Assembly: GCA_964590035.1 (NCBI GenBank)
Contig: CAZPXK010000002.1
Location: forward strand, 11,979 to 47,010
Origin: an uncultured Bdellovibrionales bacterium
GTDB taxonomy: Bacteria; Patescibacteriota; Minisyncoccia; Moranbacterales; UBA1568
Direction: 5' to 3'
Length of the DNA stretch: 35,032 nucleotides
Each line of letters opens with the position of its first letter. The first letter of the stretch is position 1. The notes beneath the pieces were generated by a model that had not been told where the DNA came from, made no database searches, and saw nothing but the letters and a program-made list of their open reading frames with translations. Position numbers and translations under genes: made by a program. Below are positions 22,214-35,032 of the stretch, piece after piece.

Positions 22214-22234
22214 AATTGTAAATTTTAGATACTC

Positions 22235-22344
22235 AAAAGGCGGTTCTGGCACCCAACATACGCCACAAGAGTGGTTTTTGTCGGCAGAACCGCCTTTTCG
22301 GCGACAAAAAATAGAAACTCCTGTGGAATTGGTACGTTGGGTGC
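22235..22344. repeat. cluster of inverted repeats in the spacer between the two recombinase genes
   Basis: AAAAGGCGGTTCTG (22235-22248) / CAGAACCGCCTTTT (22285-22298), perfect 14 bp. GCACCCAACATA (22249-22260) / TACGTTGGGTGC (22333-22344), 11 of 12. TTTTTGTCG (22275-22283) / CGACAAAAA (22302-22310). Confidence 0.7.
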
Positions 22345-22358
22345 ATTTATATTATGCC

Positions 22359-23498
22359 TCATTTTTCGCTTTCTGCCAACTCTTTTTTGAGGATTTTTGC
22401 GAGCTTCTTTATCGCCGTATCGCTCATATCTCCGATAACAGGTTCAATCTCTGGATTGCCGAACTTGATACCGCGGATGATTTCCGTTTGTCGGTCGGTA
22501 GAGATTTTTCCGTAACCGTAAGAACCAAAAGTTGTTCCTACGTCTGTATGTCCGAGATTTTGACTGATAGCTTTCTTTTCTTCCTCGGTCAGTCGTGTCT
22601 TGATGAACTCTTTGACGATAAGATGCCGAAAGGTATGCGGATGGAAATAGGGGATACCTGCACCTTTGAAGCGTTTCTCGAATATCTTTCTGGCAGGGGA
22701 TGCGTTGCTCCAAAAGGTAGGCTCGACAACTCCCGAACTGTAATAGCTGATATTTTCCTTTCCTTGCTCCAATTTGGTGGCGGGAAAAAGCGGGTCAATG
22801 GGTGAGAACTCCCGCTTCTTCTCAAGATAGTCGAACCATTCCAGAAAATAGGTGAGAGGTTTTTTATCAGGCATCGGGAAGAGGGCGGTCGTAATCATCT
22901 TGGAAAACTTGGTTTTCACTCCCGAGGCTGGGTCTTGTTCCAAGATGAGCCTCCGCTTGTCGAAGCTCTTCATTCGGAGGCTGGCGATAGCGGAAATTCT
23001 CGCTCCTGTCAGAAGAGTAAGGGCGATGAGAGCCTTATCACGTTTTTCAACTTCGGTTTCTCCATTGATGCTTTCAAGGACTTGCAAGACTTCCTCGAAA
23101 GTCGGAGCGTCTACCGTCCTCGCTCGGGTGGCTATCTGGCTTTCTTTCCGTGAGAGGTTCAAATAGCCTATGTGAGTAGCGTTGATTTTTGATTTCGGCT
23201 GTTGAGCAAGCCACTCGAAGAACTTTCGCAGGTAGCGGAGAATATCGTAGCAATAGCTCAAGCTGATGGGGTTTTTGGAACCCTTCTTTTCTTTCCCTTT
23301 GAGCCAGTCCCTGAAAACGATTGCCTGCTTATCGTCAAAGGAAGAAAAATCGTCCGTCTTGGTAAAGTCTTCCCAGTAGAGCAGGGCTTTCTCGAAAGAC
23401 GCTATGGAATTGTCTGAAAATTGCTCTGAATTTTTGAGGAAAGCGAAGAACTCACGCTTCGTCATTTCATTCTTGTAATTCGCTTTTTTCATATACAT
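22359..23498 (-). CDS. tyrosine recombinase / phage-type integrase
   Basis: N-terminal SAM-like core-binding domain. Catalytic domain with LTGARISAI (Arg), HPHTFRHLIV (H-x-x-R) and LGHTDVGTTFGSYGY (His/Tyr). Confidence 0.9.
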   Translation of the reverse strand: MYMKKANYKNEMTKREFFAFLKNSEQFSDNSIASFEKALLYWEDFTKTDDFSSFDDKQAIVFRDWLKGKEKKGSKNPISLSYCYDILRYLRKFFEWLAQQPKSKINATHIGYLNLSRKESQIATRARTVDAPTFEEVLQVLESINGETEVEKRDKALIALTLLTGARISAIASLRMKSFDKRRLILEQDPASGVKTKFSKMITTALFPMPDKKPLTYFLEWFDYLEKKREFSPIDPLFPATKLEQGKENISYYSSGVVEPTFWSNASPARKIFEKRFKGAGIPYFHPHTFRHLIVKEFIKTRLTEEEKKAISQNLGHTDVGTTFGSYGYGKISTDRQTEIIRGIKFGNPEIEPVIGDMSDTAIKKLAKILKKELAESEK

Positions 23499-23576
23499 TT
23501 AGGCGTTATTGATGATTTACTCGTAAAGAGACATTCAGGAGAGAGATGCTGGAACCTGTTAGTCCTTTTGGAAGTC

Positions 23577-23960
23577 TCATACGAGGCGATTTACTTTTGT
23601 CCCGCATCGCTCGCATTTTCCCCTTTGGAAGAACTGCTTCCGCGAGTTTTTCCCGATTGTTTTTCCTGTCGGAACCGTCTCTTCCGTTCCTAATGTGGCA
23701 CGGGTCGGCACTCGGCATTTCAGGCAATAATACTCGCCTTGTTGAAGTGGCACTTTTCGCTTCTTCATTTTTTCAGAAAGGAAGTGGCGGAGTTCGTCGC
23801 CCATAATGAGGAGGGGACGAGTGTTCTTTTCAAGGGGATGGAGACCATCCCCGAGCCATCGGAAAATCGTTTTCTTATTGATGTGAAAGAGCGTAGCGAT
23901 TTCTTCGGGTGTGTAGCTATGGCGAGACGTGATAAGTCTCGGGTTATATCGTCGTGTCAT
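23577..23960 (-). CDS. HTH DNA-binding protein with a C-terminal C4 zinc ribbon
   Basis: YTPEEIATLFHINKKTIFRWLGDGL is an HTH. YYCLKCRVP...GKCERCGTK gives CxxC...CxxC. The start is taken as the ATG at 23960 (MTRRYNP), downstream of the small coupled ORF. Confidence 0.6.
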   Translation of the reverse strand: MTRRYNPRLITSRHSYTPEEIATLFHINKKTIFRWLGDGLHPLEKNTRPLLIMGDELRHFLSEKMKKRKVPLQQGEYYCLKCRVPTRATLGTEETVPTGKTIGKNSRKQFFQRGKCERCGTKVNRLV

Positions 23961-23988
23961 ATTTGCGTAATTATGGATTTCAAGTTGG

Positions 23989-24162
23989 CTATGCTTCTCG
24001 GGTCGGAAGTGCCTCACCTTGAGCAGAAGCCTTCCTTTCGCAAAGCCACTGCTCAAAGATTATTTCTCCAAGGATTTGAACGGCATCCCTGATTTCGGCT
24101 ACTTCTTCATCGGAAAGCGTATCGTCGTCCAAAAGCCGTTTGGCTTCTTCGATGGTTAGCAT
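23989..24162 (-). CDS. small acidic ORF (57 aa), below the ORF-track length cut-off
   Basis: MLTIEEAKRLLDDDTLSDEEVAEIRDAVQILGEIIFEQWLCERK... Its ATG overlaps the stop of the upstream gene (ATGCTAA, 24156-24162), which suggests translational coupling. Confidence 0.4.
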   Translation of the reverse strand: MLTIEEAKRLLDDDTLSDEEVAEIRDAVQILGEIIFEQWLCERKASAQGEALPTREA

Positions 24163-24443
24163 ACGGCTTCATCCGAATAGAGACGGTTCTTTATCATCTT
24201 TTGGCTATCAAAGAGCGTCCGTGCATTGAGTTGCAAACGGTCGTTCCAATAGTCGTTGGCACTGGTCTCGATAGTCGGGACACGCCGAAAGATAAACCGA
24301 GCTTTCTTCGGGTTTACGGTTCGCTCGAGGGTATGCAACTCATACCCCAAAGCCACGAGAGAAGAAGCCAAGCCAAGGTCGGTCGTGGCATACTTCGCTT
24401 CTTCAGATAGTTCTGCTGTCTCCTTCAGATGCTTGGTAATCAT
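24156..24443 (-). CDS. DUF5659-like small protein
   Basis: TTDLGLASSLVALGYELHTLERTVNPKKARFIFRR...DYWNDRLQLNARTLFDSQKMIKNRLY fits my recollection of the DUF5659 pattern (TDLyLAafL..G..l...e....k..F.F). This has not been verified by search. Confidence 0.5.
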   Translation of the reverse strand: MITKHLKETAELSEEAKYATTDLGLASSLVALGYELHTLERTVNPKKARFIFRRVPTIETSANDYWNDRLQLNARTLFDSQKMIKNRLYSDEAVC

Positions 24444-24575
24444 AAAGATTGATATAAATGATGATTACCAATCGCGATTGGATTTGCGTTTCTGCTATAT
24501 TGCGCAAAACAAAAACGCATCGTAATGATGCGCTTTTATGTCTTTTGGAAATACTTACATCAGGAAAACGAGTAT

Positions 24576-25661
24576 TTAAATGTCCCTAATATCTTTCGGC
24601 TCTCTTCTATTTTTTATAGACTTTGCAAACCGAGTGGCACTTTTTTTGATAGCATCAGGAGTCATTTGAATATCGTTTTGTTCATCAAGAATTGCGGAGA
24701 TGATTGACTCCTTATACACACCAGCTAGAGAAAGATTTTTTTCACCCTTGTAGTGTTTCAAGAGTTCTTTCTTTGGCAGTTTATAGAGTTCATATATGAG
24801 CTGATTTCTTTTAACATCACTCTCTTTTATCTCGCTAACTTTCACATCGTATTGTTTGTAAAACGTATTCTTTTTGATGATATGCTCTTTCAAATCATTC
24901 CAATTGTCTTCTATATAATTGAGAACCTGCTCTTTTGTTGCATAGGGTTTTACTATGATGAATACACTATTGAAGTGAGAGGAAAGTAGCTTTACTGTTC
25001 TCTCGCTAAAAATATATTTACCACTAAATGGACCCTCCTCTTGACCGTCCATATCATATCGGTCAGGTGAAAAATGGGCTACCCCTATATATCTACAATT
25101 TGGACACGCAATCTTATTTTGAATGTAATTGCGAACACCCTTTTCGCCAAGAAACAGGTATTTCTCAATGAAGTGCATCATTATATGTTCATCAAGCAAG
25201 TCTACATTGAAAAATTTCTGGAATAGAGACCACGCCGTTGGGAAAAGCTTCGAAAGTTTTTTATTCTCTGATATAAAATGATTTTGAGTGAAGTAGCTGT
25301 TGTGGTCATCAATTCGTGAGGATAGAAATATAATTATATCGAGTGGTTTGAATCTTCCTTTTGATTCTTTGATAAAAGCGTCAACTACTTCGTCTCTATT
25401 TTCATTATTCAAACGAATACCTTTTTTTGCCTCATATTTCTCAATAAAACAGAAAAATGCCAGAGAATGTTGTTCATTTGCAGTAAGCTTATTCATCAGA
25501 AATTCTGCCAGTTGTGGAATTTCATCAAAGCCATTTTCAATCGGTATGCCGAGCTCTTTTCTTGTCTTTTTTATTTCATTAACAAAACCCTCCTTTATAA
25601 CAAGCTTATCAAAAAGGATTTTGAATTTTTTCTCGAAATAATCAGCAGAGTACTTTTTCAT
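24576..25661 (-). CDS. hypothetical protein (361 aa), AT-rich orphan
   Basis: Long uninterrupted ORF in a region of about 30% GC. Lys/Asn/Ile/Phe-rich. One CPNC motif. No family recognised. Transcribed divergently from the HTH-mod-res operon. Confidence 0.6.
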   Translation of the reverse strand: MKKYSADYFEKKFKILFDKLVIKEGFVNEIKKTRKELGIPIENGFDEIPQLAEFLMNKLTANEQHSLAFFCFIEKYEAKKGIRLNNENRDEVVDAFIKESKGRFKPLDIIIFLSSRIDDHNSYFTQNHFISENKKLSKLFPTAWSLFQKFFNVDLLDEHIMMHFIEKYLFLGEKGVRNYIQNKIACPNCRYIGVAHFSPDRYDMDGQEEGPFSGKYIFSERTVKLLSSHFNSVFIIVKPYATKEQVLNYIEDNWNDLKEHIIKKNTFYKQYDVKVSEIKESDVKRNQLIYELYKLPKKELLKHYKGEKNLSLAGVYKESIISAILDEQNDIQMTPDAIKKSATRFAKSIKNRREPKDIRDI

Positions 25662-25715
25662 TGCAATCCTAAAGTTTTGCGTAATCGTAATCGTGTAGTA
25701 TAGTTATGGTAACTT

Positions 25716-25937
25716 ATGGTAGAAGAGAAATCAAGTTTGATGAAACGAGAAAATATGCCTGAAATCCTCACTTTGAAACAGGCAAGCGAGGTTTTACATT
25801 GCCACCCAAATACGCTCCGCACGTGGGAGCGGGAAGGGCTGATAAAGTGTATCCGCTTTGGAAAAAGAGGCGATAGGCGATTTGCCAAGGAAGAAATACT
25901 TCGTCTACTTGATGGGAAAGTAGATTTATCAAAATAA
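25716..25937 (+). CDS. excisionase-family / MerR-type HTH DNA-binding protein
   Basis: ILTLKQASEVLHCHPNTLRTWEREGLIKCIRFGKRGDRRFAKEEI is the typical excisionase-family HTH_17 pattern. Internal starts (MKRENMPE or MPEIL) are possible. Confidence 0.7.
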   Translation: MVEEKSSLMKRENMPEILTLKQASEVLHCHPNTLRTWEREGLIKCIRFGKRGDRRFAKEEILRLLDGKVDLSK

Positions 25938-25962
25938 GATTACAAATTACGAAAAAATTACT

Positions 25963-27609
25963 ATGTCAGAAAGCTCACTCAAAAAAGGTCGTTACACGAA
26001 ATTCAGCAATAAAATTGGATTGTATAGCAATAGCAAGGGGGGCTTTATCAAAAACGATACTGACGTAGTGCTGAACTTTCCGTTCAAAGATGCCGTACTT
26101 GAAGCAGGAATGAGCAAGGAGGATGTCGGGCGTGAGGAACGCTTTCTTCACATCGAGGTTGATAGCAAAGACATCGACACGCTGGAAGAACCAAAAGTGC
26201 TTACTGACTTCCGTTACATTGATAAGGACGGCGAAAGGGCATTGGATGCCAATAGCGATATTGAGTTTTTTGATACCGAAGGTAACCTCAAGCAGAACCT
26301 GCTCATCAAGGGGAATAACTTGCTGGCACTGTATACCTTGCGTGAGCGTCTTGCTGGGCAAGTGAAGCTCATCTACATTGACCCCCCGTATAACACGGGT
26401 AACGACGGCTTCCGCTATAACGATAGCTTCAATCATTCAGCATGGCTGGTGTTTATGAGGAATCGACTTGAGGTTGCAAAAGAGTTGCTTAGTGATAATG
26501 GAGCAATATTTGTACAATGTGATGATAATGAGCAGGCTTATCTCAAGGTGTTGATGGATGAGATATTTGGACGCGATAACTTTATCGGAACTCTTATTCA
26601 TCAGCGGGCGAAAGGTGGAGGGCAAGCTAAATATATCGTAAAAGGCCACGATTATATAACTATATTTGCTAAAGATGCTAGTAGTAATGTTCAATTCGCT
26701 CGACAGAAAGTAATTCAGGGAAAGGTTGTAGAAATTGATGGAGTAGCGCACTTACGAAATGATGATATTGTTCGAAAAACTTTTGGAAAATATGATAAGT
26801 CGTTGGGAGATAGGCGCTGTTATTATGAGGAACTAGAAAAATATAAAAATCCATCCCAAATAGAGGAAATTCGACGCAAGGTTGAATTAAGAGAATATGT
26901 TTTGGAAAAAAATGCCTCTGGTATGCATACGATTGTAGCGTATACGCCTGTAGATAGTGCTTATTCGAAGCTATACTCCATCGTTAATGCTTTGTCAGAG
27001 AAGGGTAATGAGCAAATAGAAAGCCTGGGATTGGATTTCAGCAATCCTAAACCAGAAGAGATTATACGGTTTCTTATCGAATCCACTACTAAAGAAAACG
27101 ATATTGTACTTGACTATCATTTAGGTTCAGGCACTACCTCTGCTGTGGCTCAGAAGATGAACCGTCGATGGGTTGGTATTGAACAGATGGATTACATTGA
27201 AGATGTAGCGAAGGAGCGCTTAAAGAAGGTTGTTGCAGGCGAACAAGGTGGTATTAGCAAAACCGTTGGTTGGACTGGCGGTGGCTCTTTTGTGTATTTT
27301 GAACTCAAAAAATACAATCAAGAATATATCGACCGTATCGCGAAGGCTACAAGTCTCTCTGAACTGGAAGAAATCTATGTGGATATGCGGAACAATGCCT
27401 TTCTGAAGTTTTGGTTTGACCGCAAAGAGTTTGAAAAGGACGAGAATTTCCGCAATCTCGACATTCAAGGTCGCAAGCAGAAGCTCGTGGACGTATTGGA
27501 TGAAAACCAACTCTATCTGAACTATGCCGATATGGATGACACACGGCACAAAGTAACTGTCGACGAAAAGACACTAACGGACAAGTTTTATGGCTCGGCA
27601 AAAAACTAA
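25963..27609 (+). CDS. mod: type III restriction-modification DNA methyltransferase (Mod), beta-class N6A/N4C
   Basis: Motif IV IYIDPPYNTGND comes before motif I VLDYHLGSGTTSAVA, which is beta-class order, with a variable region of about 230 aa between them. It is followed by, and overlaps, a res gene. Confidence 0.9.
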   Translation: MSESSLKKGRYTKFSNKIGLYSNSKGGFIKNDTDVVLNFPFKDAVLEAGMSKEDVGREERFLHIEVDSKDIDTLEEPKVLTDFRYIDKDGERALDANSDIEFFDTEGNLKQNLLIKGNNLLALYTLRERLAGQVKLIYIDPPYNTGNDGFRYNDSFNHSAWLVFMRNRLEVAKELLSDNGAIFVQCDDNEQAYLKVLMDEIFGRDNFIGTLIHQRAKGGGQAKYIVKGHDYITIFAKDASSNVQFARQKVIQGKVVEIDGVAHLRNDDIVRKTFGKYDKSLGDRRCYYEELEKYKNPSQIEEIRRKVELREYVLEKNASGMHTIVAYTPVDSAYSKLYSIVNALSEKGNEQIESLGLDFSNPKPEEIIRFLIESTTKENDIVLDYHLGSGTTSAVAQKMNRRWVGIEQMDYIEDVAKERLKKVVAGEQGGISKTVGWTGGGSFVYFELKKYNQEYIDRIAKATSLSELEEIYVDMRNNAFLKFWFDRKEFEKDENFRNLDIQGRKQKLVDVLDENQLYLNYADMDDTRHKVTVDEKTLTDKFYGSAKN

Positions 27610-30421
27610 AGTCAATGAAACGCTCGGTAACTTTCTGTTCAATCAGATAGAAAGCGACCCTGACTTTCAGCAGTGGGCGGTAGATTATAGTATCCCTGAC
27701 TATATCACCGACAACCTACACCCGACGAAACGCTTGCGAGAGTATCAAGAGCGAGCTTTGAAGCACTTCATCTGGCTCTATGACCACGATAGGGCGAGAG
27801 CGAAGCATCTCTTGTTCAATATGGCTACGGGAACAGGGAAGACCCTTGTAATGGCATCCGTGGTGCTGTTTCTCTATGAAAAGGGCTATCGCAACTTCCT
27901 CTTTCTCGTGCATCAGATACAAATCAAAGACCAAGCCGTAAAGAACTTTACCGATTACAAGTTTGAGAAGTATCTGTTCAACCCAAAGGGTATCAAAATC
28001 AATGGACGGAATGTGGACGTCAAAATGGTCGAGAGCGTAGCGGATGCCAACCGCAACGCTATCAACTTTATGTTCTTCAGCACCTCATTGCTCTATAATC
28101 GCCTCAAAGAAGATAGGGAGAACGGATTGACTGCCGAAGACTTTGCAAATAACGATGTCGTGATAATCGCTGATGAAGCCCATCGGCTCAATGTGGATAC
28201 ACGAAGCAAAAACAAGAAAGACCAAGAAGAAATACTCAACTGGGAAACAGCCGTGATGTCGGCTATCAAGGCTCGGGAAGAAAATATGCTGTTGGAGTTT
28301 ACCGCTACGGTTGATTTGGCAAACGAAGCTATTCACAGTAAGTATGAAGATAAGATTGTTCACCGTTACGATTTCCTTGAGTTCAACAAAGACGGTTATA
28401 GCAAGGATGTGAAGTTCCTTTTCAACCAAGAGGTTCATATCGAAGACCAGAAACGCCTACTCATTATCAATGCGGTTGCTTTGAGCGAATATCGCAGGTT
28501 GCTTGCCGAACGAGAAATGGAAGTGTTCATCAGCCCGATTGTGCTTATCAAATCGGTAAAAATCGCTCAAAGCGAAGAAGACCGCAAGTTTTTTGATAGC
28601 GTGATTGGTTCCCTCCGACCAGATGATTTGAACCGTCTCAAAGAATTGAGCAAAGGAGGGAAAAACCGTGAACACGAGATTTTGAGCGATATGTTCAAAT
28701 GGCTCGCATCTCCCAAGGCTGGTCTCGTATCGCAAGGCGATTGGGAGGGATTGAAAGCGTTTACTGCCGAGATACGGGCAAGTTTCGCCCACGAAAACAC
28801 ACTTATCTATAACAGTCAGAAAAAGGAAAAAGCAGAGTTATTGCCATTATTAGATAGTCCTCGAAACACCATCCGTGCCATCTTTTCAGTCAATGCGCTG
28901 AACGAGGGTTGGGATGTGCTTGGTTTGTATGACATCGTTCATTTTGATATTTCCGAAGCCAAGAAGGTATCTCTTCAAGATATTCAGTTGATTGGTCGTG
29001 GTGCGAGATATTGTCCCTATGAACTGCCAAAGCTCTACAAGCAAGATGAAGCCGATGGTATGTCGAGCCTGTTTGCTGGGCGTAGTCTTGAGTTTGATAA
29101 ATACAAACGGAAGTTCGACAACGACCCATTCGATAAGGGGCGAGTGTTGGAAACATTCGTTTATCATTTCGTGAAAACAGGGACATTTCTTGAGAGCCTT
29201 CAGCGTGATTTGCTCGGTGAGGGCATTATCAGCGAAGGTGTCGAAAAGAAGACTATCGCGATGAAGCAAAAGTTCCTTGAAAGCGAGACTTACAAGAAAG
29301 GGTTCGTTCTCGTAAATCATACGGAACAAAGAACCAAGACGAAGGATGATGAGATTGATACGACATTCAAGCGTGTCATAAAGGCTGGCTCATATAATTT
29401 ACGGGCGAGGGGTCTATCGGATTTTGAACAAAACCAAATTATCGCAGGACAAAAAGTTGATGTTATTAGCATCACTGAAGAATATTTCCCACTGCCTGTC
29501 ATTCGTAAAGCGTTGGTTTCTGCCGAGGGTAACTTTTTCCGTTTCAGTAATTTGAGCAAGCATATTGTCGGTATCAGCACGATTGATGAACTCATTGAAA
29601 AATACCTGCCACTTTATAAAATCAGTTATACCTACGAAGAAGGCAAGGGTATCAGTCAGCTCAATCCGATAGAAAAACTGCAATTGCTGGTCGGCGTGAT
29701 ATTGCCAGAGGTGCGTAAGGCGATTGATATAAATATGCCCCGCGTAACGGGGAGCAAAAAATTCCGTCCAGTCTCGTTGTCAGTTGTATTTGGCAAGGAA
29801 AAGAATATCTATCTGATGTCGTTTCCAGTCGAAGACGCGGTTACTGGGAAGAAGGTGTTTATGAGCAACGATGAACGTGCCAAAGCACAGTCCGACCACG
29901 ACAATCCAGAACTGCAATACGATATTCAATCTGCCAATTGGTATGCCTATGATGAGAACTACGGCACGAGTGAGGAGAAACGCTTTGTGAAGTATATAGC
30001 GAGCCAGATTGATGATTTACGGGCGAAGTATCAAGGGGCGGAGATTTACCTGATACGCAACGAACTTGATTACTGGCTCTTTAGCCCGCAAGACGGACGC
30101 AGGTTCAGCCCTGACTATATGCTGATAGTGAATGATGTCGCCAATGGCGAGATGTATTACCAGTGTTTGATTGAGCCAAAGGGCGGTCATTTGCTCGAAC
30201 ACGATGTGTGGAAAGAAGAAGCCCTGATAAGCCTGAATGATGATAGCGAGGTGGTATTTGACGCACGGGATGGTGATACTCGCAATTACCGTGAATACTT
30301 AGCAGAAGTCAGCAAGCACGGCTATAAGGAGATAAAATCGCTTGGCTTGAAGTTCTACAATTCCGACCCTCGCGGTGAAGAAGATTTCGCACTGGATTTT
30401 CAAGAAAAATTACTTCGCTAA
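27590..30421 (+). CDS. res: type III restriction endonuclease subunit (Res), SF2 helicase + PD-(D/E)xK nuclease
   Basis: NMATGTGKT (motif I), IIADEAHRL (DEAH), SVNALNEGWDV, IGRGAR, and the C-terminal FSPDYMLIV...CLIEPKG nuclease motif. The start overlaps mod by 20 nt. Confidence 0.9.
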   Translation: MARQKTKVNETLGNFLFNQIESDPDFQQWAVDYSIPDYITDNLHPTKRLREYQERALKHFIWLYDHDRARAKHLLFNMATGTGKTLVMASVVLFLYEKGYRNFLFLVHQIQIKDQAVKNFTDYKFEKYLFNPKGIKINGRNVDVKMVESVADANRNAINFMFFSTSLLYNRLKEDRENGLTAEDFANNDVVIIADEAHRLNVDTRSKNKKDQEEILNWETAVMSAIKAREENMLLEFTATVDLANEAIHSKYEDKIVHRYDFLEFNKDGYSKDVKFLFNQEVHIEDQKRLLIINAVALSEYRRLLAEREMEVFISPIVLIKSVKIAQSEEDRKFFDSVIGSLRPDDLNRLKELSKGGKNREHEILSDMFKWLASPKAGLVSQGDWEGLKAFTAEIRASFAHENTLIYNSQKKEKAELLPLLDSPRNTIRAIFSVNALNEGWDVLGLYDIVHFDISEAKKVSLQDIQLIGRGARYCPYELPKLYKQDEADGMSSLFAGRSLEFDKYKRKFDNDPFDKGRVLETFVYHFVKTGTFLESLQRDLLGEGIISEGVEKKTIAMKQKFLESETYKKGFVLVNHTEQRTKTKDDEIDTTFKRVIKAGSYNLRARGLSDFEQNQIIAGQKVDVISITEEYFPLPVIRKALVSAEGNFFRFSNLSKHIVGISTIDELIEKYLPLYKISYTYEEGKGISQLNPIEKLQLLVGVILPEVRKAIDINMPRVTGSKKFRPVSLSVVFGKEKNIYLMSFPVEDAVTGKKVFMSNDERAKAQSDHDNPELQYDIQSANWYAYDENYGTSEEKRFVKYIASQIDDLRAKYQGAEIYLIRNELDYWLFSPQDGRRFSPDYMLIVNDVANGEMYYQCLIEPKGGHLLEHDVWKEEALISLNDDSEVVFDARDGDTRNYREYLAEVSKHGYKEIKSLGLKFYNSDPRGEEDFALDFQEKLLR

Positions 30422-30433
30422 TGAGAAAACAAT

Positions 30434-31315
30434 ATGCCAATCTTTCAAATCGCCAGTAAGAACGCAAAGCAGATAGCTCTTGATTTGGGTCGTTTTGAAA
30501 ACGAAGCCTCCCTCCGTGATTACTTCGCGGAAAATCTTGAAAGCCTCCTTGGTATGCGTTTTTTGGCGAAAGAGTATCAAACACGCGATGGGAGAATTGA
30601 TACGCTGGCGATTGATGAGGCAAATGCCCCAGTGATTATTGAGTATAAATGGAACGAAAAGGATACCATACTTCCGCAGGGTCTTTTCTATTTCAACTGG
30701 CTCAAAGAAAACAAACGGTTATTCAATCTTCAGGCTGAAAAAATCCTTGGAAAGGAAGTCAAAGTCAATTGGGAAAAACCACGGGTCGTGCTTATTGCTC
30801 AAGGATTTGACCGCTACACGATGTTTGCCGTCCGAGAGGTGCGGTATGTGGAACTTATCAAATATACGCCATACAAGGACGGTATTTTGCTTCTTGAGAC
30901 GGTATATAGTCCAGATACGTCCAAGCCCATTACGGAAAAAGCGGAAGAAAGTGAGACTGAAGAGAAAGAAGAAAAATTCGGGGTTGATTACCATTTGGAG
31001 AAAGTTACGAATGAAGTGAAAGAGGTTTTCTATGCTCTTGAAGAGAGGCTTTTGGCATTGCCTTCGGTGACGGAGGTTGCCGAGCAAAAGGCGGGCATTA
31101 CCTATCGGACAACCAAGAGCTTTACACGGTTTGAGTTCGGAAAGACATACATTGATATTCTGCTCCGTGAGGCAAAGTATGAAGACCCGCAGGGATTGGT
31201 TCAGGATATTGCTTCATACAAATGGGGTTATAACGGGAGAATAAAAATCAAATCTCTTGAGGAGGTAGAGACTATCTTTGAGTTGATACGCCAGTCGTAT
31301 CAGTCTACCCTTTAG
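30434..31315 (+). CDS. NucS/DUF91-like PD-(D/E)xK nuclease-fold protein with a DUF5655-like C-terminal domain
   Basis: The N-terminal pattern ...EASLRDYFAENLESLLGMRFLAKEYQTRDGRIDTLAIDEANAPVIIEYKW is typical of NucS/DUF91-type nucleases. An acidic linker follows. The C-terminus (ITYRTTKSFTRFEFGKTYIDILL...KIKSLEEVETIFELIRQSY) resembles DUF5655. Both calls are from memory. Confidence 0.6.
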   Translation: MPIFQIASKNAKQIALDLGRFENEASLRDYFAENLESLLGMRFLAKEYQTRDGRIDTLAIDEANAPVIIEYKWNEKDTILPQGLFYFNWLKENKRLFNLQAEKILGKEVKVNWEKPRVVLIAQGFDRYTMFAVREVRYVELIKYTPYKDGILLLETVYSPDTSKPITEKAEESETEEKEEKFGVDYHLEKVTNEVKEVFYALEERLLALPSVTEVAEQKAGITYRTTKSFTRFEFGKTYIDILLREAKYEDPQGLVQDIASYKWGYNGRIKIKSLEEVETIFELIRQSYQSTL

Positions 31316-31323
31316 AAAAAAAA

Positions 31324-31506
31324 ATGTATCACCCTATTCAACCACCAGAAGGAAGCATTGAATGGATGAAGGAGATGGTGAAGAAGAATGAGGGGCGTGA
31401 GCTGACTGACCAAGAGGCTTACGAAGTGGCATACAACTATCTCAATTTCTTCAATATGCTTATATATCTGGATAAAAAGCAGAAGCCTAACAAACCAAAA
31501 GAGTAA
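31324..31506 (+). CDS. small hypothetical protein (60 aa)
   Basis: Tightly packed between flanking genes, with its stop 4 nt before the next ATG. Shares an [LI]-[ST]-D-x-[ED]-A-x-E...L..hh motif with ORFs 32369..32569 and 23989..24162. Confidence 0.4.
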   Translation: MYHPIQPPEGSIEWMKEMVKKNEGRELTDQEAYEVAYNYLNFFNMLIYLDKKQKPNKPKE

Positions 31507-31510
31507 ATTT

Positions 31511-32359
31511 ATGAAAGCAGTAAAAAAGCCCCCACTCAAAGCTAACCTGACACGTCTCTCCAAAGATAAGGAATGGCGTCTGTATAAGAGAAAATCGGCT
31601 ATACCCATAGGGGCAGAGACATCAAGGCACTACTTGATTGGTACCTTGACCAATGGTTTCAATCTTATCCTGGCTGGTATAACTGGCTCTGGGAAAAGCA
31701 CATTTTTCCACAGTGCTATTGTTCATCTTTTGGAGAATACAAAGCCTGACGAATTGAAGCTCGTCCTCATTGACCCGAAACAAGTAGAACTGCGAATATA
31801 CGAAAGTCTGCCTAACTTGGCGTTTCCAGTTATTGGGACTTCAAAAGAAGCAAAGAAAGTTCTGAAATGGTGTATGAGTGAGATGAACCATCGACTCGAG
31901 ACCCTGACAAAAAAAGGGAAGCCTATATCTTTTGACGATTTCAATCGAAAGCATAAGAGCAAATTACCGAGGATTGTAGTTCTTATCGACGAATGTTCTG
32001 ATTTGATGCACGATAGCCCTCGTTTCTTCAGGAAGGCAATCGAAGACATACTCAAGCTTGGAGAGGCGACTGGCGTAAACTTGGTGATAGGCACATCTCG
32101 TCCGTCACTTGATGTTTATCCTGAAAAGCTAGTGAGTGCATTTCAATATAAACTAGCCTTCAAAGTATCGAAGTCCACTGATTCCGTACTTGTTCTTGGT
32201 GTAAAGGGTGCTGAAAAATTGCGAGGTAAAGGGGATATGCTTTTCCGCTTTTGGGAGGGACTGGAGGAGCGTGTTGCTCATTTACAGGGCTTCTATATAA
32301 GTGAGGCGGAAATAAAGAAAGCTATCGCTTCAATCAAACCGCTTAGGAATGGGGGGTAA
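31511..32359 (+). CDS. FtsK/SpoIIIE-family DNA translocase ATPase, motor domain only
   Basis: Walker A LILAGITGSGKSTF, Walker B PRIVVLIDECSDL, VNLVIGTSRPS, GKGDMLF. No TM segment or gamma domain. Confidence 0.8.
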   Translation: MKAVKKPPLKANLTRLSKDKEWRLYKRKSAIPIGAETSRHYLIGTLTNGFNLILAGITGSGKSTFFHSAIVHLLENTKPDELKLVLIDPKQVELRIYESLPNLAFPVIGTSKEAKKVLKWCMSEMNHRLETLTKKGKPISFDDFNRKHKSKLPRIVVLIDECSDLMHDSPRFFRKAIEDILKLGEATGVNLVIGTSRPSLDVYPEKLVSAFQYKLAFKVSKSTDSVLVLGVKGAEKLRGKGDMLFRFWEGLEERVAHLQGFYISEAEIKKAIASIKPLRNGG

Positions 32360-32569: not shown

Positions 32570-32590
32570 CCATTCTCAACTCCTGCCAAG

Positions 32591-32615
32591 AGAGGCTTTA
32601 CAGAGCCTCTTTTTT
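32591..32615 (+). terminator. rho-independent terminator
   Basis: AGAGGC (32591-32596) / GCCTCT (32605-32610), followed by TTTTT. Confidence 0.55.
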
Positions 32616-32618
32616 GTA

Positions 32619-32647
32619 TTGACACCGAGCCTAAAAAGGTGTATAAT
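32619..32647 (+). promoter_or_regulatory. consensus sigma70 promoter of the DGR target gene (TTGACA-17 nt-TATAAT)
   Basis: TTGACA at 32619-32624, exactly 17 nt of spacer, TATAAT at 32642-32647. Both hexamers are perfect consensus. Confidence 0.65.
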
Positions 32648-32794
32648 GGTATGTTGAACCTTAAAAATCCATACTTTTGCCATAGCAGAAAGCGGCTTCA
32701 TCTAGGCCTTTCTCTGCTATGGCAAACTCGAATCTTTCGAGACCTGGCCTGCGACCATGTCCGCAAGGATAGTCGCTTCAACAAGGAGATCGTT

Positions 32795-33421
32795 ATGACG
32801 AAGTCCGAGTTTTCTGTCGTTGGTCTGGCGCACAAAATCTGCCTTGCCGCAGAAGCGCAGGGATACAACCCCGAGCTTCTCAACGCTTTGGCGGAACATC
32901 CTTCTCTCTTCGAGCAATTGCTCGAAGTGCAGCAAGGTCGAGCGAACATCGTTCCGTTCGAGAAAAAGCCGGAGCCCGTTCTCGACACCCTCATCCGTGT
33001 CGACCGCTCCATCCGGCCGGTTTACCCCGACTGGATGAAGACCGTGATGCATCCGGAACTGGAATCTACCGGCCTGGTCGAATACGATCTCGGAACCATC
33101 AACCCTTGGCTCCATGACGGTCAGAAAAATGGCCGCTACATGGAAGGCAACAAGCTCTACGAGTATCTGAAAGAACAGAAGATGCTCGAGAGCTGCCTGT
33201 CGCTGCGCGACGGCGAAGAGATCCAAAAGAAAGGCCTGGCTGTTTTCCGGAAGTTCTTCCAAGGCAAAGCGGTCTTTCTCTGGAAGTCAGTCGTGCGGCG
33301 CCGCGGCGGCAGCCTCAACGTTCCGTATCTCTACGAGGACGACGACGGGGTGGTGGTGGGCTGGCGCTGGCTCGGCAGCAGCTGGGACGGCAACGACCCC
33401 GCTCTGCGCTTCGCAAGTTAG
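32795..33421 (+). CDS. DGR variable (target) protein, 208 aa, no signal peptide; VR forms the C-terminal 42 codons
   Basis: The ATG at 32795 is preceded by AAGGAG 7 nt upstream. The ORF-track start at 32639 lies inside the promoter -10 region and is rejected. The C-terminus ...GGSLNVPYLYEDDDGVVVGWRWLGSSWDGNDPALRFAS ends 5 nt after the VR, as in CLec-fold DGR targets (xxGFRxA-like ending). Confidence 0.85.
   Translation: MTKSEFSVVGLAHKICLAAEAQGYNPELLNALAEHPSLFEQLLEVQQGRANIVPFEKKPEPVLDTLIRVDRSIRPVYPDWMKTVMHPELESTGLVEYDLGTINPWLHDGQKNGRYMEGNKLYEYLKEQKMLESCLSLRDGEEIQKKGLAVFRKFFQGKAVFLWKSVVRRRGGSLNVPYLYEDDDGVVVGWRWLGSSWDGNDPALRFAS
33291..33414 (+). repeat. DGR variable repeat (VR)
   Basis: 124 bp aligned without gaps to 33771-33894 (offset exactly 480). 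There are 19 mismatches, all at positions where the TR has A (17 are G and 2 are C in the VR). The adenine-free 3' block CCCCGCTCTGCGCTTCGC is identical in both. Confidence 0.92.
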
Positions 33422-33474
33422 CACTCTGGACTCTGTATCTTTGGTCTCTTAGACCCTTGATACTTAGTCCTTTG

Positions 33475-33510
33475 ACCCCGCATTTTACCTAATGGTAGTG
33501 CGGGGTTTTC
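33475..33510 (+). terminator. rho-independent terminator downstream of the target gene
   Basis: ACCCCGCA (33475-33482) / TGCGGGGT (33499-33506), followed by TTTT. Confidence 0.55.
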
Positions 33511-33546
33511 ATTTTCTCAATTTTTTATCTTTTGATATACTGAAAT

Positions 33547-33940
33547 TGGTAGTAGGCGAATCTTGCAGGCGACTACGGTTGCCAGCGGCCGAATCCAGTA
33601 TCCATACACCGAGAGTATCCGCGGCCACGGTTTCGGATAGAGTGGTGTATGTAGACACTTCACTAAAAATGAAGATACTTGGTATAAGATGCTAAGGCAT
33701 TTGAGATGCCGAATACGATTCAACTCTGAGAGTATTCAAGGGGTGATGGCACAGGTGGCATTTTATACGTTCGTGCAGAACCGCAACGGCAACCTCAACG
33801 TTCCGTATCTCTACGAGAACGACGACAAGGTGGTGGTGAACTGGAACTGGCTCGACAACAACTGGAACGACAACAACCCCGCTCTGCGCTTCGCCATTCT
33901 CTTCTTTCTCCTCTCACTGGTTAGAGGAGTTTTGTTTTTT
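33547..33940 (+). ncRNA. putative DGR template RNA (structured leader + TR + 3' hairpin)
   Basis: Extended -10 TGaTATACT at 33533-33541. Leader stems: GTAGT/ACTAC (33549-53 / 33572-76), CATACACC/GGTGTATG (33603-10 / 33644-51) enclosing TATCCG/CGGATA (33616-21 / 33634-39), GGCAT/ATGCC (33696-33710) and GAATAC/GTATTC (33711-16 / 33732-37). The TR is at 33771-33894. A hairpin CTCCTCT/AGAGGAG (33908-33929) is followed by a T-run. Transcript ends are inferred, not demonstrated. Confidence 0.35.
33771..33894 (+). repeat. DGR template repeat (TR)
   Basis: Contains 34 adenines, including 12 AAC codons when read in the VR frame. 19 of the 34 A positions differ in the VR, and no non-A position differs. 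Confidence 0.92.
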
Positions 33941-34303
33941 CAGGAGCTGTCCCTGCCAACCCCCGAGCATTCGCCCGATTTCATCAAGTCTTACCGAAAG
34001 TGCCAGATACTTTTTGTTATCCAGTGACTTGGTCTCCCACAAAATCATCAAGAAGAGTTTGAGGGTATCCATCTTTTTGATAGCGTGGCGGATGTACGGA
34101 ATCTTTTCCGTACCTGAAGAAAAGCTGGCTGCTGCCACTGCTTCAATAGTTTCTACAAAGAGACTATCAATTTTCTGCCCTAGAGAATGCCGGTGAATTT
34201 TTGGCAAAGTAAAAAGATAGCTATACCACAATGTGTATCCTTCCTTCAGTTTTTGCAAAAGAGGTAAGAGCTTCGGGGGGGGGGTGTTCAAAGAAGAGTT
34301 CAT
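33914..34303 (-). CDS. avd: DGR accessory variability determinant (Avd), four-helix-bundle / 23S rRNA intervening-sequence protein family
   Basis: 129 aa. ...YLFTLPKIHRHSLGQKIDSLFVETIEAV...IKKMDTLKLFLMILWETK...LSVRLDEIGRMLGGWQGQLLKK parallels Bordetella bAvd (IPRKHG..., AEVGRILGSWIARVNRK) and the four-helix-bundle family. It lies between the TR and the RT but on the opposite strand. Confidence 0.85.
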   Translation of the reverse strand: MNSSLNTPPPKLLPLLQKLKEGYTLWYSYLFTLPKIHRHSLGQKIDSLFVETIEAVAAASFSSGTEKIPYIRHAIKKMDTLKLFLMILWETKSLDNKKYLALSVRLDEIGRMLGGWQGQLLKKQNSSNQ

Positions 34304-35032
34304 ATATAAAGAAAAAATGTGCTGCCACTTATGATAATATCATTTCTCTCGATAATTTGCTTATCGCTTGGAAAGAGTTCTTGAAAGGAAAACAGAAGAA
34401 AAAAGATGTACAGGAGTTTGAATTGCGCCTTATGGATAATATCCTCGCACTGCACCAAAACCTCGTAACTAAAACCTACCGCCATTCAAGCTACGAGGCT
34501 TTCAATATTTCCGACCCCAAACCTCGAAACATCCATAAAGCCCGAGTGAGAGACCGAGTCGTTCATCGTGCCATATACCGCATTCTCTATCCTTTCTTCG
34601 ACCGGCTATTCATTGCTGACTCATATTCCTGTCGAAATGACAAAGGAATCCACAAAGCTCTTGACCGTTTCCGAAGCTTCGCTCGCAAAGCTTCCCACAA
34701 CCATACACGGACTGTTTGGGCACTCAAATGCGATGTGAGGAAGTTCTTTGCTTCTATTGACCAGAGCATCCTCCTTGGTATTCTCGAAAAGCATATTCTT
34801 GACCAAGATATTCTCAAGCTTCTTTCAGCAATCATTGGGAGCTTCCATACAGAGGAGGGGAAAGGCTTACCGCTTGGCAATCTCACATCCCAGCTTTTGG
34901 TGAACGTCTATATGAACGAGTTCGACCAGTTTATGAAACATCAAGCAAAGGCGAAATACTATATTCGTTACGCTGATGACTTTGTAATTTTCTCGGATAA
35001 TAAGGAGCAACTGAAAACAACTCTCTTGCAGA
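34231..35032 (+). CDS. DGR reverse transcriptase, C-terminus beyond the window edge; start uncertain
   Basis: Absent from the ORF track because it is open at 35032. Translation: ...YDNIISLDNLLIAWKEFLKGKQKKKDVQEF...PRNIHKARVRDRVVHRAIYRIL...SYSCRNDKGIHKAL...ALKCDVRKFFASIDQSIL...GLPLGNLTSQLLVNVYMNEFD...YIRYADDFVIF. The LGNLTSQ motif (rather than the QGxxxSP of group II introns) and YADD are DGR-RT hallmarks. The only in-frame ATG upstream is at 34231, which overlaps avd by 73 nt. Confidence 0.9.
   Translation, partial: MCILPSVFAKEVRASGGGCSKKSSYIKKKCAATYDNIISLDNLLIAWKEFLKGKQKKKDVQEFELRLMDNILALHQNLVTKTYRHSSYEAFNISDPKPRNIHKARVRDRVVHRAIYRILYPFFDRLFIADSYSCRNDKGIHKALDRFRSFARKASHNHTRTVWALKCDVRKFFASIDQSILLGILEKHILDQDILKLLSAIIGSFHTEEGKGLPLGNLTSQLLVNVYMNEFDQFMKHQAKAKYYIRYADDFVIFSDNKEQLKTTLLQ
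34275..34284. repeat. G10 homopolymer (C10 on the avd strand)
   Basis: Ten consecutive G at 34275-34284. They encode Pro-Pro-Pro (codons 8-10) of avd on the minus strand and Gly-Gly-Gly of the extended RT frame on the plus strand. Confidence 0.9.

What the first reader, a model, noticed from the sequence alone, without database searches (positions are those of the whole stretch)
33291..33894. VR/TR repeat pair with strictly adenine-specific mismatches: direct sequence evidence of DGR mutagenic retrohoming
Positions 33291-33414 (the last 42 codons of ORF 32795..33421) and 33771-33894 align gap-free over 124 bp at an offset of exactly 480 nt. I counted 19 mismatches. Every one sits where the downstream copy has A, and the upstream copy has G 17 times and C twice. 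None of the 90 non-A positions differs. The downstream copy has 34 A in total, organised as 12 AAC codons plus CAG, AAG and GAC codons when read in the VR frame. That is the classic DGR template design. The shared 3' block CCCCGCTCTGCGCTTCGC has no adenine and could act as an IMH-like anchor. Homology stops abruptly after it (VR ...TCGCaagttag, TR ...TCGCcattctc). The strong bias towards G (17 of 19, with no T) is itself unusual for a single VR snapshot.
Basis: seen in the sequence. Interest (0 to 1): 0.9.

Follow-up and report, generated by a model that had tools for sequence, protein, structure and literature searches.

The report
Diversity-generating retroelement in a Patescibacteria genome
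The repeat pair is a real diversity-generating retroelement of the type already known to be common in ultra-small (CPR/Patescibacteria) bacteria. The element itself is ordinary, but its template sits in a conserved, structured, self-contained RNA gene that is absent from Rfam and that I did not find described in the papers I could read.

Summary
Positions 33291-33414 (VR) and 33771-33894 (TR) align gap-free. All 19 mismatches lie at TR adenines (17 G, 2 C), with P=1.6e-13.

The locus has an Avd gene on the minus strand and a reverse transcriptase with the DGR motif LGNLTSQ. Its layout, target/VR, TR, (avd), RT, is the published B3 architecture that accounts for 90% of CPR DGRs.

An independent wastewater contig carries the same cassette at 98.5% identity. 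Its TR, leader and avd are identical, but its VR differs at 17 TR-adenine sites. Across 69 homologues, codons templated by adenines have 2.5 bits of entropy against 0.5 for the rest.

The G bias is not special to this locus. The whole clade shows about 63% A>G.

Beyond the finding:
- TR lies in a roughly 390-nt RNA gene with its own promoter, a 222-nt covarying leader, a TR-bracketing duplex and a terminator hairpin.
- This RNA occurs in at least 120 metagenomic cassettes and matches no Rfam family.
- The target domain models confidently but has no significant structural match.

Verdict: a new member of a known kind.

The parts
32619..32647 (+). Promoter-like site of the target gene (TTGACA, 17 nt, TATAAT; 12 of 12 matches). 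Homology with the independent cassette copy L052 begins at 32591.
32795..33421 (+). Target (variable-protein) gene, 208 aa, with AAGGAG upstream of the ATG. No Pfam, NCBIfam or PADLOC family. 354 homologues; every named one is from Patescibacteria or an unclassified bacterial MAG.
33291..33414 (+). Variable repeat (VR), the last 42 codons of the target gene.
33397..33414 (+). A-free GC-rich block identical in VR and TR, a candidate IMH-like 3' homology anchor. The function is inferred.
33428..33470 (+). Extended three-segment inverted repeat 14 nt after the end of VR homology (GGACT..GTATC...GGTCT ctt AGACC...GATAC..AGTCC). Most of the 20 loci folded predict a similar segmented hairpin built from different sequences. 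It is absent after TR. It is the positional analogue of the Bordetella inverted repeat downstream of IMH.
   Evidence: Wu et al. PMC5758913
33476..33509 (+). Terminator-like hairpin of the target gene (CCCCGCA ... TGCGGGG then TTTT).
33533..33541 (+). Extended -10 promoter element (TGATATACT). An equivalent -10-like element lies at this position, 6-7 nt upstream of the leader start, in all 21 related genome loci.
33548..33770 (+). Structured 5' leader of the DGR RNA (222-position model, 60 base pairs, 11 helices).
33609..33664 (+). Leader hairpin P2 with a GAGAGU/AGAGUG internal loop. Weak partial match to Rfam RT-7 (23 bits against a gathering score of 116.8).
33667..33675 (+). Leader strand AAAUGAAGA of the long-range duplex that brackets TR.
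33771..33894 (+). Template repeat (TR): 34 adenines, identical in L052.
33900..33907 (+). Post-TR linker strand UCUUC(A)UUU of the TR-bracketing duplex. The window lacks the A, which leaves a bulged U.
33908..33940 (+). Covarying hairpin (CTCCTCT / AGAGGAG) followed by TTTTGTTTTTT. It is either the intrinsic terminator of the DGR RNA, the Avd-binding stem-loop, or both. The avd stop codon lies inside it.
   Evidence: Handa et al. preprint
33914..34303 (-). avd, the accessory variability determinant, 129 aa. PF22296 bAvd scores 48.3 bits (cut-off 40). NCBIfam DivGenRetAVD scores 62 bits (below its cut-off of 80).
34275..34284 (.). G10 tract. On the minus strand it encodes PPP of Avd. On the plus strand it lies 12-13 nt upstream of the RT start codon in most relatives.
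34231..35032 (+). Reverse transcriptase ORF, cut off by the end of the window. Conserved sequence starts at 34330 (YDNIISL...). The start codon is uncertain: the first in-frame ATG is 34231, which overlaps avd in antisense. Contains LGNLTSQ and YADD.

Best explanation
This is a functional, or very recently functional, diversity-generating retroelement of the CPR/Patescibacteria B3 type.

Proposed mechanism:
1. A roughly 390-nt non-coding RNA is transcribed from its own extended -10 promoter. It comprises a 222-nt structured leader, the 124-nt TR, a short linker that pairs back to the leader, and a hairpin plus U-tract.
2. The RT and Avd, encoded divergently just downstream, bind this RNA.
3. 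The RT copies TR into cDNA and misincorporates only opposite adenines. In this clade it mostly inserts dC, which reads as A>G in the gene.
4. The cDNA replaces the VR at the 3' end of the 208-aa target gene. The A-free identical block supplies 3' homology. The extended inverted repeat just downstream of VR marks VR, not TR, as the recipient.
5. Twenty-one codons are rewritten (12 AAC, 4 GAC, and CAG, AAG, TAT, TAC, GAG). My own arithmetic gives about 1e20 possible protein variants.

Shown here: all sequence parts, RNA covariation, family-wide hypervariability confined to adenine-templated codons, and VR turnover between two nearly identical cassettes.

Inferred by analogy with the Bordetella phage DGR: RNP assembly, cis-priming, and the roles of the duplex, the hairpins and the IMH-like block.
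For: The repeat geometry is strictly adenine-specific, P=1.6e-13.

The RT's best solved-structure match is Bordetella bRT 8ub7, E=5.3e-35. It carries the DGR signature [I/V/L]GxxxSQ as LGNLTSQ. Avd is recognised by PF22296 above its threshold.

All 21 related genome loci with a clean VR/TR pair have avd on the minus strand between TR and RT, wherever the contig reaches that far. This is architecture B3, TR-(avd)-RT, reported for 90% of CPR DGRs (PMC5758913).

L052 carries the same cassette at 98.5% identity. It has 0 differences in TR, leader and avd, and 1 in the other 496 bp of the target gene. Its VR has 18 differences, 17 of them at TR-A sites.

In 69 homologues, entropy is 2.51 bits at codons with a TR A at position 1 or 2, against 0.53 bits at other VR codons (Mann-Whitney p=7e-8).

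In 57 further metagenomic VR/TR pairs of the clade, 941 of 949 mismatches are at TR adenines.

Leader RNA: 47 of 60 pairs show compensatory changes in 72 distinct sequences, 96.8% of cells are paired, and 0 of 500 shuffles reach the observed values.
Against: No read-level data exist, so present-day activity is not shown.

This subgroup (window, L052, L001, L007, L003, L009) has no ATG, GTG or TTG at the position where relatives start the RT. How the RT is translated is therefore unclear.

The RT is cut off by the window end, so its completeness rests on L052, where a 360-aa product was called.

Avd scores below NCBIfam's curated cut-off (62 against 80 bits).

The VR-bearing domain could not be shown to have the C-type lectin fold usual for DGR targets.
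Confidence: 0.93

Rival explanations
1. The cassette is a fossil DGR. It diversified the VR in the past but is now inactive, for example because the RT lost its start codon.
For: There is no canonical start codon at the conserved RT start position in this subgroup. L008, a relative, shows decay: 4 non-A VR/TR mismatches, and its RT matches only from residue 76.
Against: The window and L052 show no differences anywhere between 33411 and 34896, which includes the avd-RT junction and the RT 5' region. Yet their VRs differ at 17 TR-A sites with TR unchanged. The cassette was therefore active in this very configuration. The RT ORF is intact for at least 233 codons and is 91-93% identical to L001 and L007. 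The window's VR/TR pair has no non-A mismatch.
Confidence: 0.06
2. The pair is an ordinary tandem segmental duplication whose copies diverged by a transition-biased process, such as adenine deamination or editing, with no reverse transcription involved.
For: 17 of the 19 changes are A>G transitions.
Against: Two changes are A>C. Relatives show 17% A>C and 20% A>T. Changes are strictly one-directional and confined to one copy. A DGR-type RT and an Avd lie adjacent. TR is invariant between samples while VR changes. Thymines, which are the adenines of the other strand, are unaffected.
Confidence: 0.005
3. The repeat pair is an assembly artefact: a collapsed or chimeric duplication in a metagenome-assembled contig.
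For: The window probably comes from a metagenome-assembled genome: the matching NCBI protein sits on a 47-kb contig and all related loci are MAGs.
Against: The same layout, with a 426-550 nt VR-TR offset, was assembled independently in more than 75 contigs from many projects. One of them is a 98.5% identical copy from a different study. The flanks of the two repeats are unrelated and each carries its own conserved signals.
Confidence: 0.005

Closest known systems
CPR/Patescibacteria DGRs of architecture B3, TR-(avd)-RT (Wu et al. 2018, PMC5758913). Equivalent to DGR clade 2 of Roux et al. 2021, PMC8144416.
   Same: The gene order and strands match: target/VR, then TR, then avd on the opposite strand, then RT. 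The host lineage matches. The target is small and has no recognisable domain or transmembrane segment. The locus is chromosomal.
   Different: Nothing at the level of architecture, so I file it here. The papers I could read do not describe the 222-nt structured leader upstream of TR.
Bordetella phage BPP-1 DGR (mtd-avd-TR-brt), the mechanistic prototype.
   Same: Adenine-specific TR-to-VR transfer. RT with [I/V/L]GxxxSQ. An Avd protein. AAC-rich TR with adenines at codon positions 1 and 2. A GC-rich A-free 3' block shared by VR and TR. An inverted repeat downstream of VR only. [quoted passage not shown] A stem-loop just downstream of TR.
   Different: avd is inverted and lies between TR and RT. 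The large structured RNA part lies 5' of TR, not in a 140-nt spacer 3' of TR. Only about 45 nt follow TR before a terminator-like U-tract. The substitution spectrum is A>G dominated (63%). For bRT in vitro, A>T comes first (dA 22%, dC 18%, dG 12% opposite A; PMC7826257). The RT has YADD where bRT has YMDD. The target is a 208-aa protein, not a phage tail-fibre protein.
Rfam RT-7 (RF03028) and RT-10 motifs (Weinberg et al. 2017, PMC5737381).
   Same: These are structured RNAs found next to bacterial RT genes. RT-10 is the BPP-1 TR-RT spacer. The first hairpin of RT-7, with its GAGAGU/AGAGUG loop, resembles leader hairpin P2.
   Different: The match is 23.2 bits against a gathering score of 116.8, and 141 of the 191 model positions are missing. 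No relative gave any RT-motif hit at E<=0.1. The leader is not a member.

Membership tests
Diversity-generating retroelement (DGR) | A TR/VR near-repeat pair whose mismatches fall at TR adenines. | tested here: met
   19 of 19 mismatches lie at TR-A sites and 0 of 90 non-A sites differ; P=1.6e-13.
Diversity-generating retroelement (DGR) | An adjacent reverse transcriptase of the DGR clade with the signature motif [I/V/L]GxxxSQ. | tested here: met
   LGNLTSQ aligns to bRT IGSLTSQ. The best solved-structure hit is bRT 8ub7, E=5.3e-35. No RT phylogeny was built.
Diversity-generating retroelement (DGR) | VR lies inside a protein-coding gene, with TR adenines at codon positions 1 and 2 (AAY codons). 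| tested here: met
   VR is the last 42 codons of ORF 32795-33421. There are 12 AAC codons. Adenines by codon position are 13, 21 and 0.
Diversity-generating retroelement (DGR) | The accessory protein Avd. It is typical rather than universal. | tested here: met
   PF22296 bAvd scores 48.3 bits against a cut-off of 40. NCBIfam DivGenRetAVD gives E=5e-17 but scores 62 bits, below its cut-off of 80.
Diversity-generating retroelement (DGR) | An IMH-like GC-rich 3' block, with an inverted repeat downstream of VR only. | tested here: met
   An 18-nt A-free block is identical in VR and TR. Single-sequence folds predict an extended hairpin at 33428-33470, and most of the 20 loci folded give a comparable hairpin from different sequences. 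An alignment-based fold of this region found no pairs. The function is inferred, not tested.
Diversity-generating retroelement (DGR) | VR varies between individuals at TR-A positions while TR stays fixed (activity). | tested here: met
   Window against L052: TR is identical, and VR differs at 17 TR-A sites plus one other site. Family entropy is 2.51 against 0.53 bits. Heterogeneity within a single sample is not testable here.
Diversity-generating retroelement (DGR) | The variable residues are displayed on a C-type lectin (or Ig) fold. | tested here: inconclusive
   The AF2 models score pLDDT 91.3 (full length) and 94.5 (residues 59-208). Foldseek finds no match with E<=0.001 in PDB or BFVD. 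The best resemblance is to snake-venom C-type lectin-like chains, TM 0.36-0.45 and probability at most 0.2.
CPR B3-architecture DGR (Wu et al. 2018) | The order TR, avd on the reverse strand, then RT, in a CPR genome. | tested here: met
   TR is 33771-33894 (+), avd 33914-34303 (-), and RT runs from about 34306 (+). The same order is seen in every related locus that reaches that far. All related loci are MAGs labelled CPR/Patescibacteria, unclassified bacterium, or in six cases Bdellovibrionales.
Rfam RT-7 RNA (RF03028) | A score at or above the family's gathering threshold over the full model. | tested here: not met
   23.2 bits against 116.8. Only the first hairpin aligns. Eight relatives gave no hit.

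The most novel reading that the evidence does not exclude
The DGR RNA of this large CPR clade is an autonomous RNA gene of about 390 nt. Its conserved multi-helix scaffold (222 nt, 60 base pairs) lies 5' of TR. A 9-bp leader:linker duplex brackets TR, and a terminator hairpin ends the RNA about 45 nt after TR. Relative to the Bordetella avd-TR-spacer RNA, the layout is permuted. On this reading it would be an uncatalogued RNA family. It has no Rfam match and is shared by at least 120 cassettes that diversify at least three different VR sequence classes. The clade's RT would also have an intrinsic preference for inserting dC opposite adenine, and its target would display variability on a fold not yet represented among solved structures.
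Probability: 0.4. Interest if true: 0.6.

Novelty: new member of a known kind. Interest (0 to 1): 0.38.

Why it matters
The DGR call itself adds one more well-documented member to a known class.

The useful by-product is a precise, covariation-supported map of the non-coding parts of CPR DGRs: promoter, leader, TR-bracketing duplex, terminator or Avd hairpin, and the VR-side hairpin. All mechanistic knowledge of DGR reverse transcription comes from one phage element whose RNA is organised differently. A defined 390-nt RNA together with two small proteins gives a concrete second system to reconstitute. It could test which RNA elements are universal, and whether the A>G bias is a property of the enzyme. 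That bias matters for DGR-based mutagenesis tools.

Tried and rejected
(1) I looked up the exact NCBI protein P0001 to recover the rest of the contig and the full RT. It is not on record. The 90% cluster member P0122 and its contig L052 served instead.

(2) Rfam membership of the leader is rejected. There is only a 23-bit partial RT-7 hit in the window, and eight relatives gave nothing.

(3) I could not establish a C-type lectin fold for the target, either with the full-length model or with the domain-only model, against PDB and BFVD.

(4) RNAalifold on a MAFFT alignment of the 66 nt after VR found no pairs, because the alignment is poor. Folding each sequence separately showed a segmented hairpin in most loci.

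(5) The full-length RNAalifold run proposed pairing of leader positions 8-22 with the TR 3' end, and of CCAGU with the TR ACUGG. Neither has compensatory changes, and the local helix P1 does, so I did not adopt them.

(6) The local helix P3 (CUUCA/UGAAG) competes with the leader:linker duplex. In the 72-sequence set P3 has one compensatory pair and 7 broken cells at its variable position. The long-range partner compensates there: 5 C-G and 2 A-U. I favour the long-range duplex but cannot exclude a switch between the two.

(7) I searched for a canonical RT start codon, and considered frameshift or slippage models at the A and G runs. None is convincing.

(8) blastn of the cassette against 50,697 phage records gave no match.

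(9) Paul et al. 2017 and a 2026 preprint that mentions DGR ncRNA could not be read. The Weinberg 2017 supplements are not held.
Full report
OBSERVATION. The two 124-bp segments 33291-33414 and 33771-33894 align without gaps at an offset of 480 nt. They have 19 mismatches. Every mismatch lies where the downstream copy has A, and the upstream copy has G 17 times and C twice. None of the 90 non-A positions differs. The chance that 19 mismatches all fall on the 34 A sites is 1.6e-13. In the reading frame of ORF 32795-33421 the downstream copy has 12 AAC, 4 GAC, and one each of CAG, AAG, TAT, TAC and GAG. All adenines are at codon positions 1 or 2 (13 and 21, none at position 3). No third copy exists in the window.

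LOCAL ANATOMY. The upstream copy (VR) is the C-terminus of a 208-aa ORF that has its own consensus promoter (32619-32647) and ribosome-binding site. Downstream of the second copy (TR) lies a 129-aa ORF on the minus strand, 33914-34303. It matches Pfam bAvd above threshold (48.3 bits against 40). It also matches NCBIfam DivGenRetAVD, though below that model's cut-off (62 bits against 80). After it, on the plus strand, an RT ORF runs off the window end (RVT_1). Its best solved-structure relative is the Bordetella phage DGR reverse transcriptase 8ub7 (E=5.3e-35). In that alignment the DGR signature IGSLTSQ of bRT corresponds to LGNLTSQ, and YMDD corresponds to YADD. The ORF 33689-34027 that spans TR is spurious. 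It arises because TR keeps the VR frame, and it overlaps an RNA with strong covariation.

COMPARATIVE EVIDENCE FOR DIVERSIFICATION. The target protein has 354 homologues. Every named one comes from Patescibacteria or an unclassified bacterial MAG, and none has a Pfam domain. In an alignment of 69 of them, the framework residues of the VR region are almost invariant. Columns whose TR codon has an A at position 1 or 2 have a mean entropy of 2.51 bits, against 0.53 bits for the other VR codons (p=7e-8). The rest of the protein averages 1.04 bits.

The 90%-identity cluster of the window protein holds a member from an ENA wastewater assembly, P0122. Its contig L052 carries the same cassette at 98.5% identity over window 32591-35032. 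The 38 differences are distributed as follows:
- 17 at TR-adenine positions of VR
- 1 at a T in the A-free block of VR
- 0 in TR, the leader and avd
- 1 in the other 496 bp of the target gene
- 12 clustered at 34897-34977 in the RT
- 7 at 32599-31, next to the cassette boundary

So TR stayed fixed while VR was rewritten at adenine-templated sites after the two lineages split.

FAMILY AND ARCHITECTURE. A scan of one genome per species found 51 loci encoding relatives of the target. All are MAGs. Their labels are CPR/Patescibacteria groups, unclassified bacterium, or in six cases Bdellovibrionales. Twenty-one of them have a clean VR/TR pair at an offset of 446-524 nt. Every one that extends far enough has avd on the minus strand between TR and a plus-strand RT. 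This is architecture B3, TR-(avd)-RT, of Wu et al. 2018. They report that it accounts for 90% of CPR DGRs and is nearly absent elsewhere (PMC5758913). Roux et al. 2021 place such elements in a Patescibacteria-restricted clade whose targets typically lack recognisable domains (PMC8144416). The window element is therefore a standard member of a known class.

THE DGR RNA (beyond the finding). The 356 nt between VR and TR are not a neutral spacer. After the target gene's terminator (33476-33509) comes an extended -10 element (TGATATACT, 33533-33541). An equivalent -10-like element lies at this position, 6-7 nt upstream of a block that starts GGTAGTAGG, in all 21 related genome loci. From 33548 to the first base of TR, the sequence is highly conserved and folds into 11 helices.
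- On 18 genome loci, 34 of 60 pairs show compensatory changes and 98.5% of cells are paired. None of 500 shuffles reaches the observed values, and the slid controls are far lower.
- A covariance model built from the 18 loci recovered 75 full-length leaders at 127-247 bits, and only one in the window.
- On 72 distinct sequences, 47 of 60 pairs show compensatory changes in 607 cells, and 96.8% of cells are paired, again with 0 of 500 shuffles reaching this.

After TR comes a conserved linker (consensus CUCUCUUCAUUUCUC). Then comes a hairpin whose stem covaries, then UUUUGUUUU. In the window these are 33908-33929 plus a T-run to 33940, which scores as an intrinsic terminator.

The linker UCUUCAUUU can pair with the leader segment AAAUGAAGA (33667-33675).
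- On the 18 loci, 92.5% of cells pair and 3 pairs show compensatory changes.
- In the larger set, the variable position changes U-A to C-G in 5 loci and to A-U in 2. The competing local helix P3 is broken there in 7.

This duplex brackets TR in the way the avd:Sp cPRT Stop duplex does in the Bordetella RNP. The hairpin sits where Handa et al. predict Avd-binding stem-loops in 207 of 278 DGRs (preprint 10.1101/2023.10.23.563531). That study examined only 40 nt upstream and 100 nt downstream of TR. Rfam gives only a 23-bit partial hit to RT-7 against a gathering score of 116.8, and nothing in eight relatives. I could not read Paul et al. 2017, so I cannot say whether the leader was noted there.

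Most metagenomic cassettes with this leader have targets that are not detectably homologous to the window target. Their TRs encode at least three different VR sequence classes. The leader-TR-avd-RT core is thus a module reused with different targets.

VR-SIDE SIGNALS. The A-free block (33397-33414) is identical in VR and TR. Fourteen nt after the homology ends, VR is followed by a 43-nt inverted repeat of three short stems separated by symmetric internal loops (33428-33470; z=-5.2 against shuffles). TR has no such repeat. Most of the 20 loci folded predict a similar segmented hairpin built from different sequences, although in several the fold is no better than shuffled sequence. By position it corresponds to the inverted repeat downstream of IMH that the Bordetella and Legionella elements need for efficient retrohoming, as summarised in PMC5758913. 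Its function here is inferred.

THE G BIAS. Against a uniform spectrum, 17 or more G out of 19 has P=6e-7. Against the in-vitro spectrum of bRT it has P=1e-6. That spectrum is dA 22.2%, dC 17.8% and dG 11.6% opposite A, so A>T comes first (PMC7826257). The bias belongs to the clade, however.
- 19 non-redundant genome loci give 62% A>G (190 of 307). At that rate the window has P=0.0085, and heterogeneity among loci is mild (p=0.02).
- 57 further metagenomic pairs give A>G 594, A>C 162 and A>T 185, which is 63% G. Seven of 52 loci reach 85% G or more.
- L052, with essentially the same RT, shows 10 G, 2 C and 1 T.

Two explanations remain open. One is an enzyme that prefers dC opposite A. The other is selection for Gly, Asp, Ser and Arg codons. 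All TR adenines are at non-synonymous positions, so sequence alone cannot separate the two. One lead, not a test: bRT M214V, I176V and L184A shift the bias towards cytosine, and this RT has Ala at the M214 position (YADD).

TARGET PROTEIN. AlphaFold2 gives confident models: pLDDT 91.3 for the whole protein, and 94.5 with pTM 0.88 for residues 59-208. The C-terminal domain has four short strands, three helices, and then the strands of the C-terminal sheet, most of which fall within the VR. Foldseek finds nothing with E<=0.001 in PDB or BFVD. The only recurrent weak resemblance is to snake-venom C-type lectin-like chains (TM 0.36-0.45, probability at most 0.2). No solved DGR variable protein appears among the hits. 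The C-type lectin assignment is therefore inconclusive. The N-terminal 60 residues (three helices) are swapped among subfamilies.

CONTEXT. The window is chromosomal. It carries mur genes, FtsW, TrmD and SecA. A tRNA lies at 20642-20712. It is followed by a serine recombinase, a tyrosine integrase, a type III restriction-modification pair, a PDC-S18 candidate defence gene and an SspH-like FtsK-family ATPase, and then the DGR. In L052 the sequence upstream of 32591 is unrelated. The cassette therefore sits in different neighbourhoods.

MECHANISM, SHOWN AND INFERRED. Shown:
- all sequence parts and their conservation
- RNA covariation
- adenine-only VR/TR differences in more than 75 cassettes
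- an invariant TR with VR turnover between near-identical cassettes

Inferred from the Bordetella system:
- RT and Avd bind the RNA
- the RT cis-primes near the 3' end of TR
- synthesis stops at the bracketing duplex
- the cDNA replaces VR using the A-free block and the downstream hairpin

Unresolved:
- where priming occurs, given that only about 45 nt follow TR
- whether the U-tract terminates transcription
- how the RT is translated

VERDICT. The finding is real and correctly interpreted. It is a new member of a known, abundant kind of element, and the G bias is a clade property. The most interesting material is the conserved RNA gene around TR and the structurally unassigned target domain.

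Noticed in passing
window 34275-34284; also the avd/RT junction of related loci: A G10 homopolymer lies at the divergent avd/RT junction. A G-run of at least 6, mostly 8-11, is present at this place in 43 of 49 metagenomic cassettes. It encodes PPP near the Avd N-terminus using CCC codons, and lies 12-13 nt upstream of the RT start codon in most relatives. It may be the RT's Shine-Dalgarno sequence, or a slippage-prone switch for Avd or RT expression. The window, L052, L001 and L007 all have G10, so no length variation was seen among close relatives.
   Followed up: partly
window 34285-34332: This subgroup (window, L052, L001, L007, L003, L009) has no ATG, GTG or TTG where relatives start the RT; the window has AGT TCA TAT ATA AAG there. 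The first in-frame ATG is 34231, which would overlap avd in antisense by 73 nt, and the gene caller used it for L052. Even so, the VR has turned over between the window and L052, which show no differences anywhere between 33411 and 34896.
   Followed up: partly
window 32591 and 34897-34977, compared with L052: Homology to the independent cassette copy L052 starts abruptly at 32591, at the hairpin 32588-32613, and the upstream genes are unrelated. Twelve of the 38 differences cluster in 81 bp of the RT, which looks like a recombination tract. The cassette appears modular or mobile.
   Followed up: partly
window 20621-32359: A tRNA (20642-20712) is followed by a serine recombinase, a tyrosine integrase, type III R-M genes (Mod 25963-27609, Res 27590-30421), a PDC-S18 candidate defence gene (30434-31315) and an SspH-like FtsK-family ATPase (31511-32359). 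The DGR sits at the end of what looks like an integrated defence island.
   Followed up: partly
window 32680-32722: The roughly 140-nt 5' UTR of the target gene contains a 10-bp-stem hairpin (CCATAGCAGA ... TCTGCTATGG). I did not check whether it is conserved in relatives.
   Followed up: no
window 33827-33829 (TR codon AAG; VR 33347-33349): One TR codon is AAG. Unlike AAC, it can mutate to the stop codon TAG, so a fraction of retrohoming events would truncate the target 24 codons early.
   Followed up: no
L052 4850 (equivalent to window 33410): L052's VR has one non-adenine difference from its TR, a T>G inside the A-free IMH-like block, which changes Phe to Val.
   Followed up: no
L002, L004, L013, L014, L018, L034, L036, L038, L043, L046-L048: Many genomes encode a target homologue with a hypervariable-looking C-terminus but no avd or RT within the flank held, and no leader RNA where the covariance model was run. 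These may be remote targets served in trans, or orphaned VRs.
   Followed up: partly
L060 4036-4262 and 6405-6622: One metagenomic contig carries two full-length copies of the leader RNA 2.4 kb apart, suggesting two DGR RNA genes or cassettes in tandem.
   Followed up: no
window 32969-33418 (target residues 59-208): A very confident AlphaFold2 domain model (pLDDT 94.5, pTM 0.88) has no significant Foldseek match in PDB (domain and full-length models) or in BFVD (full-length model only). There is only weak resemblance to snake-venom C-type lectin-like proteins.
   Followed up: yes
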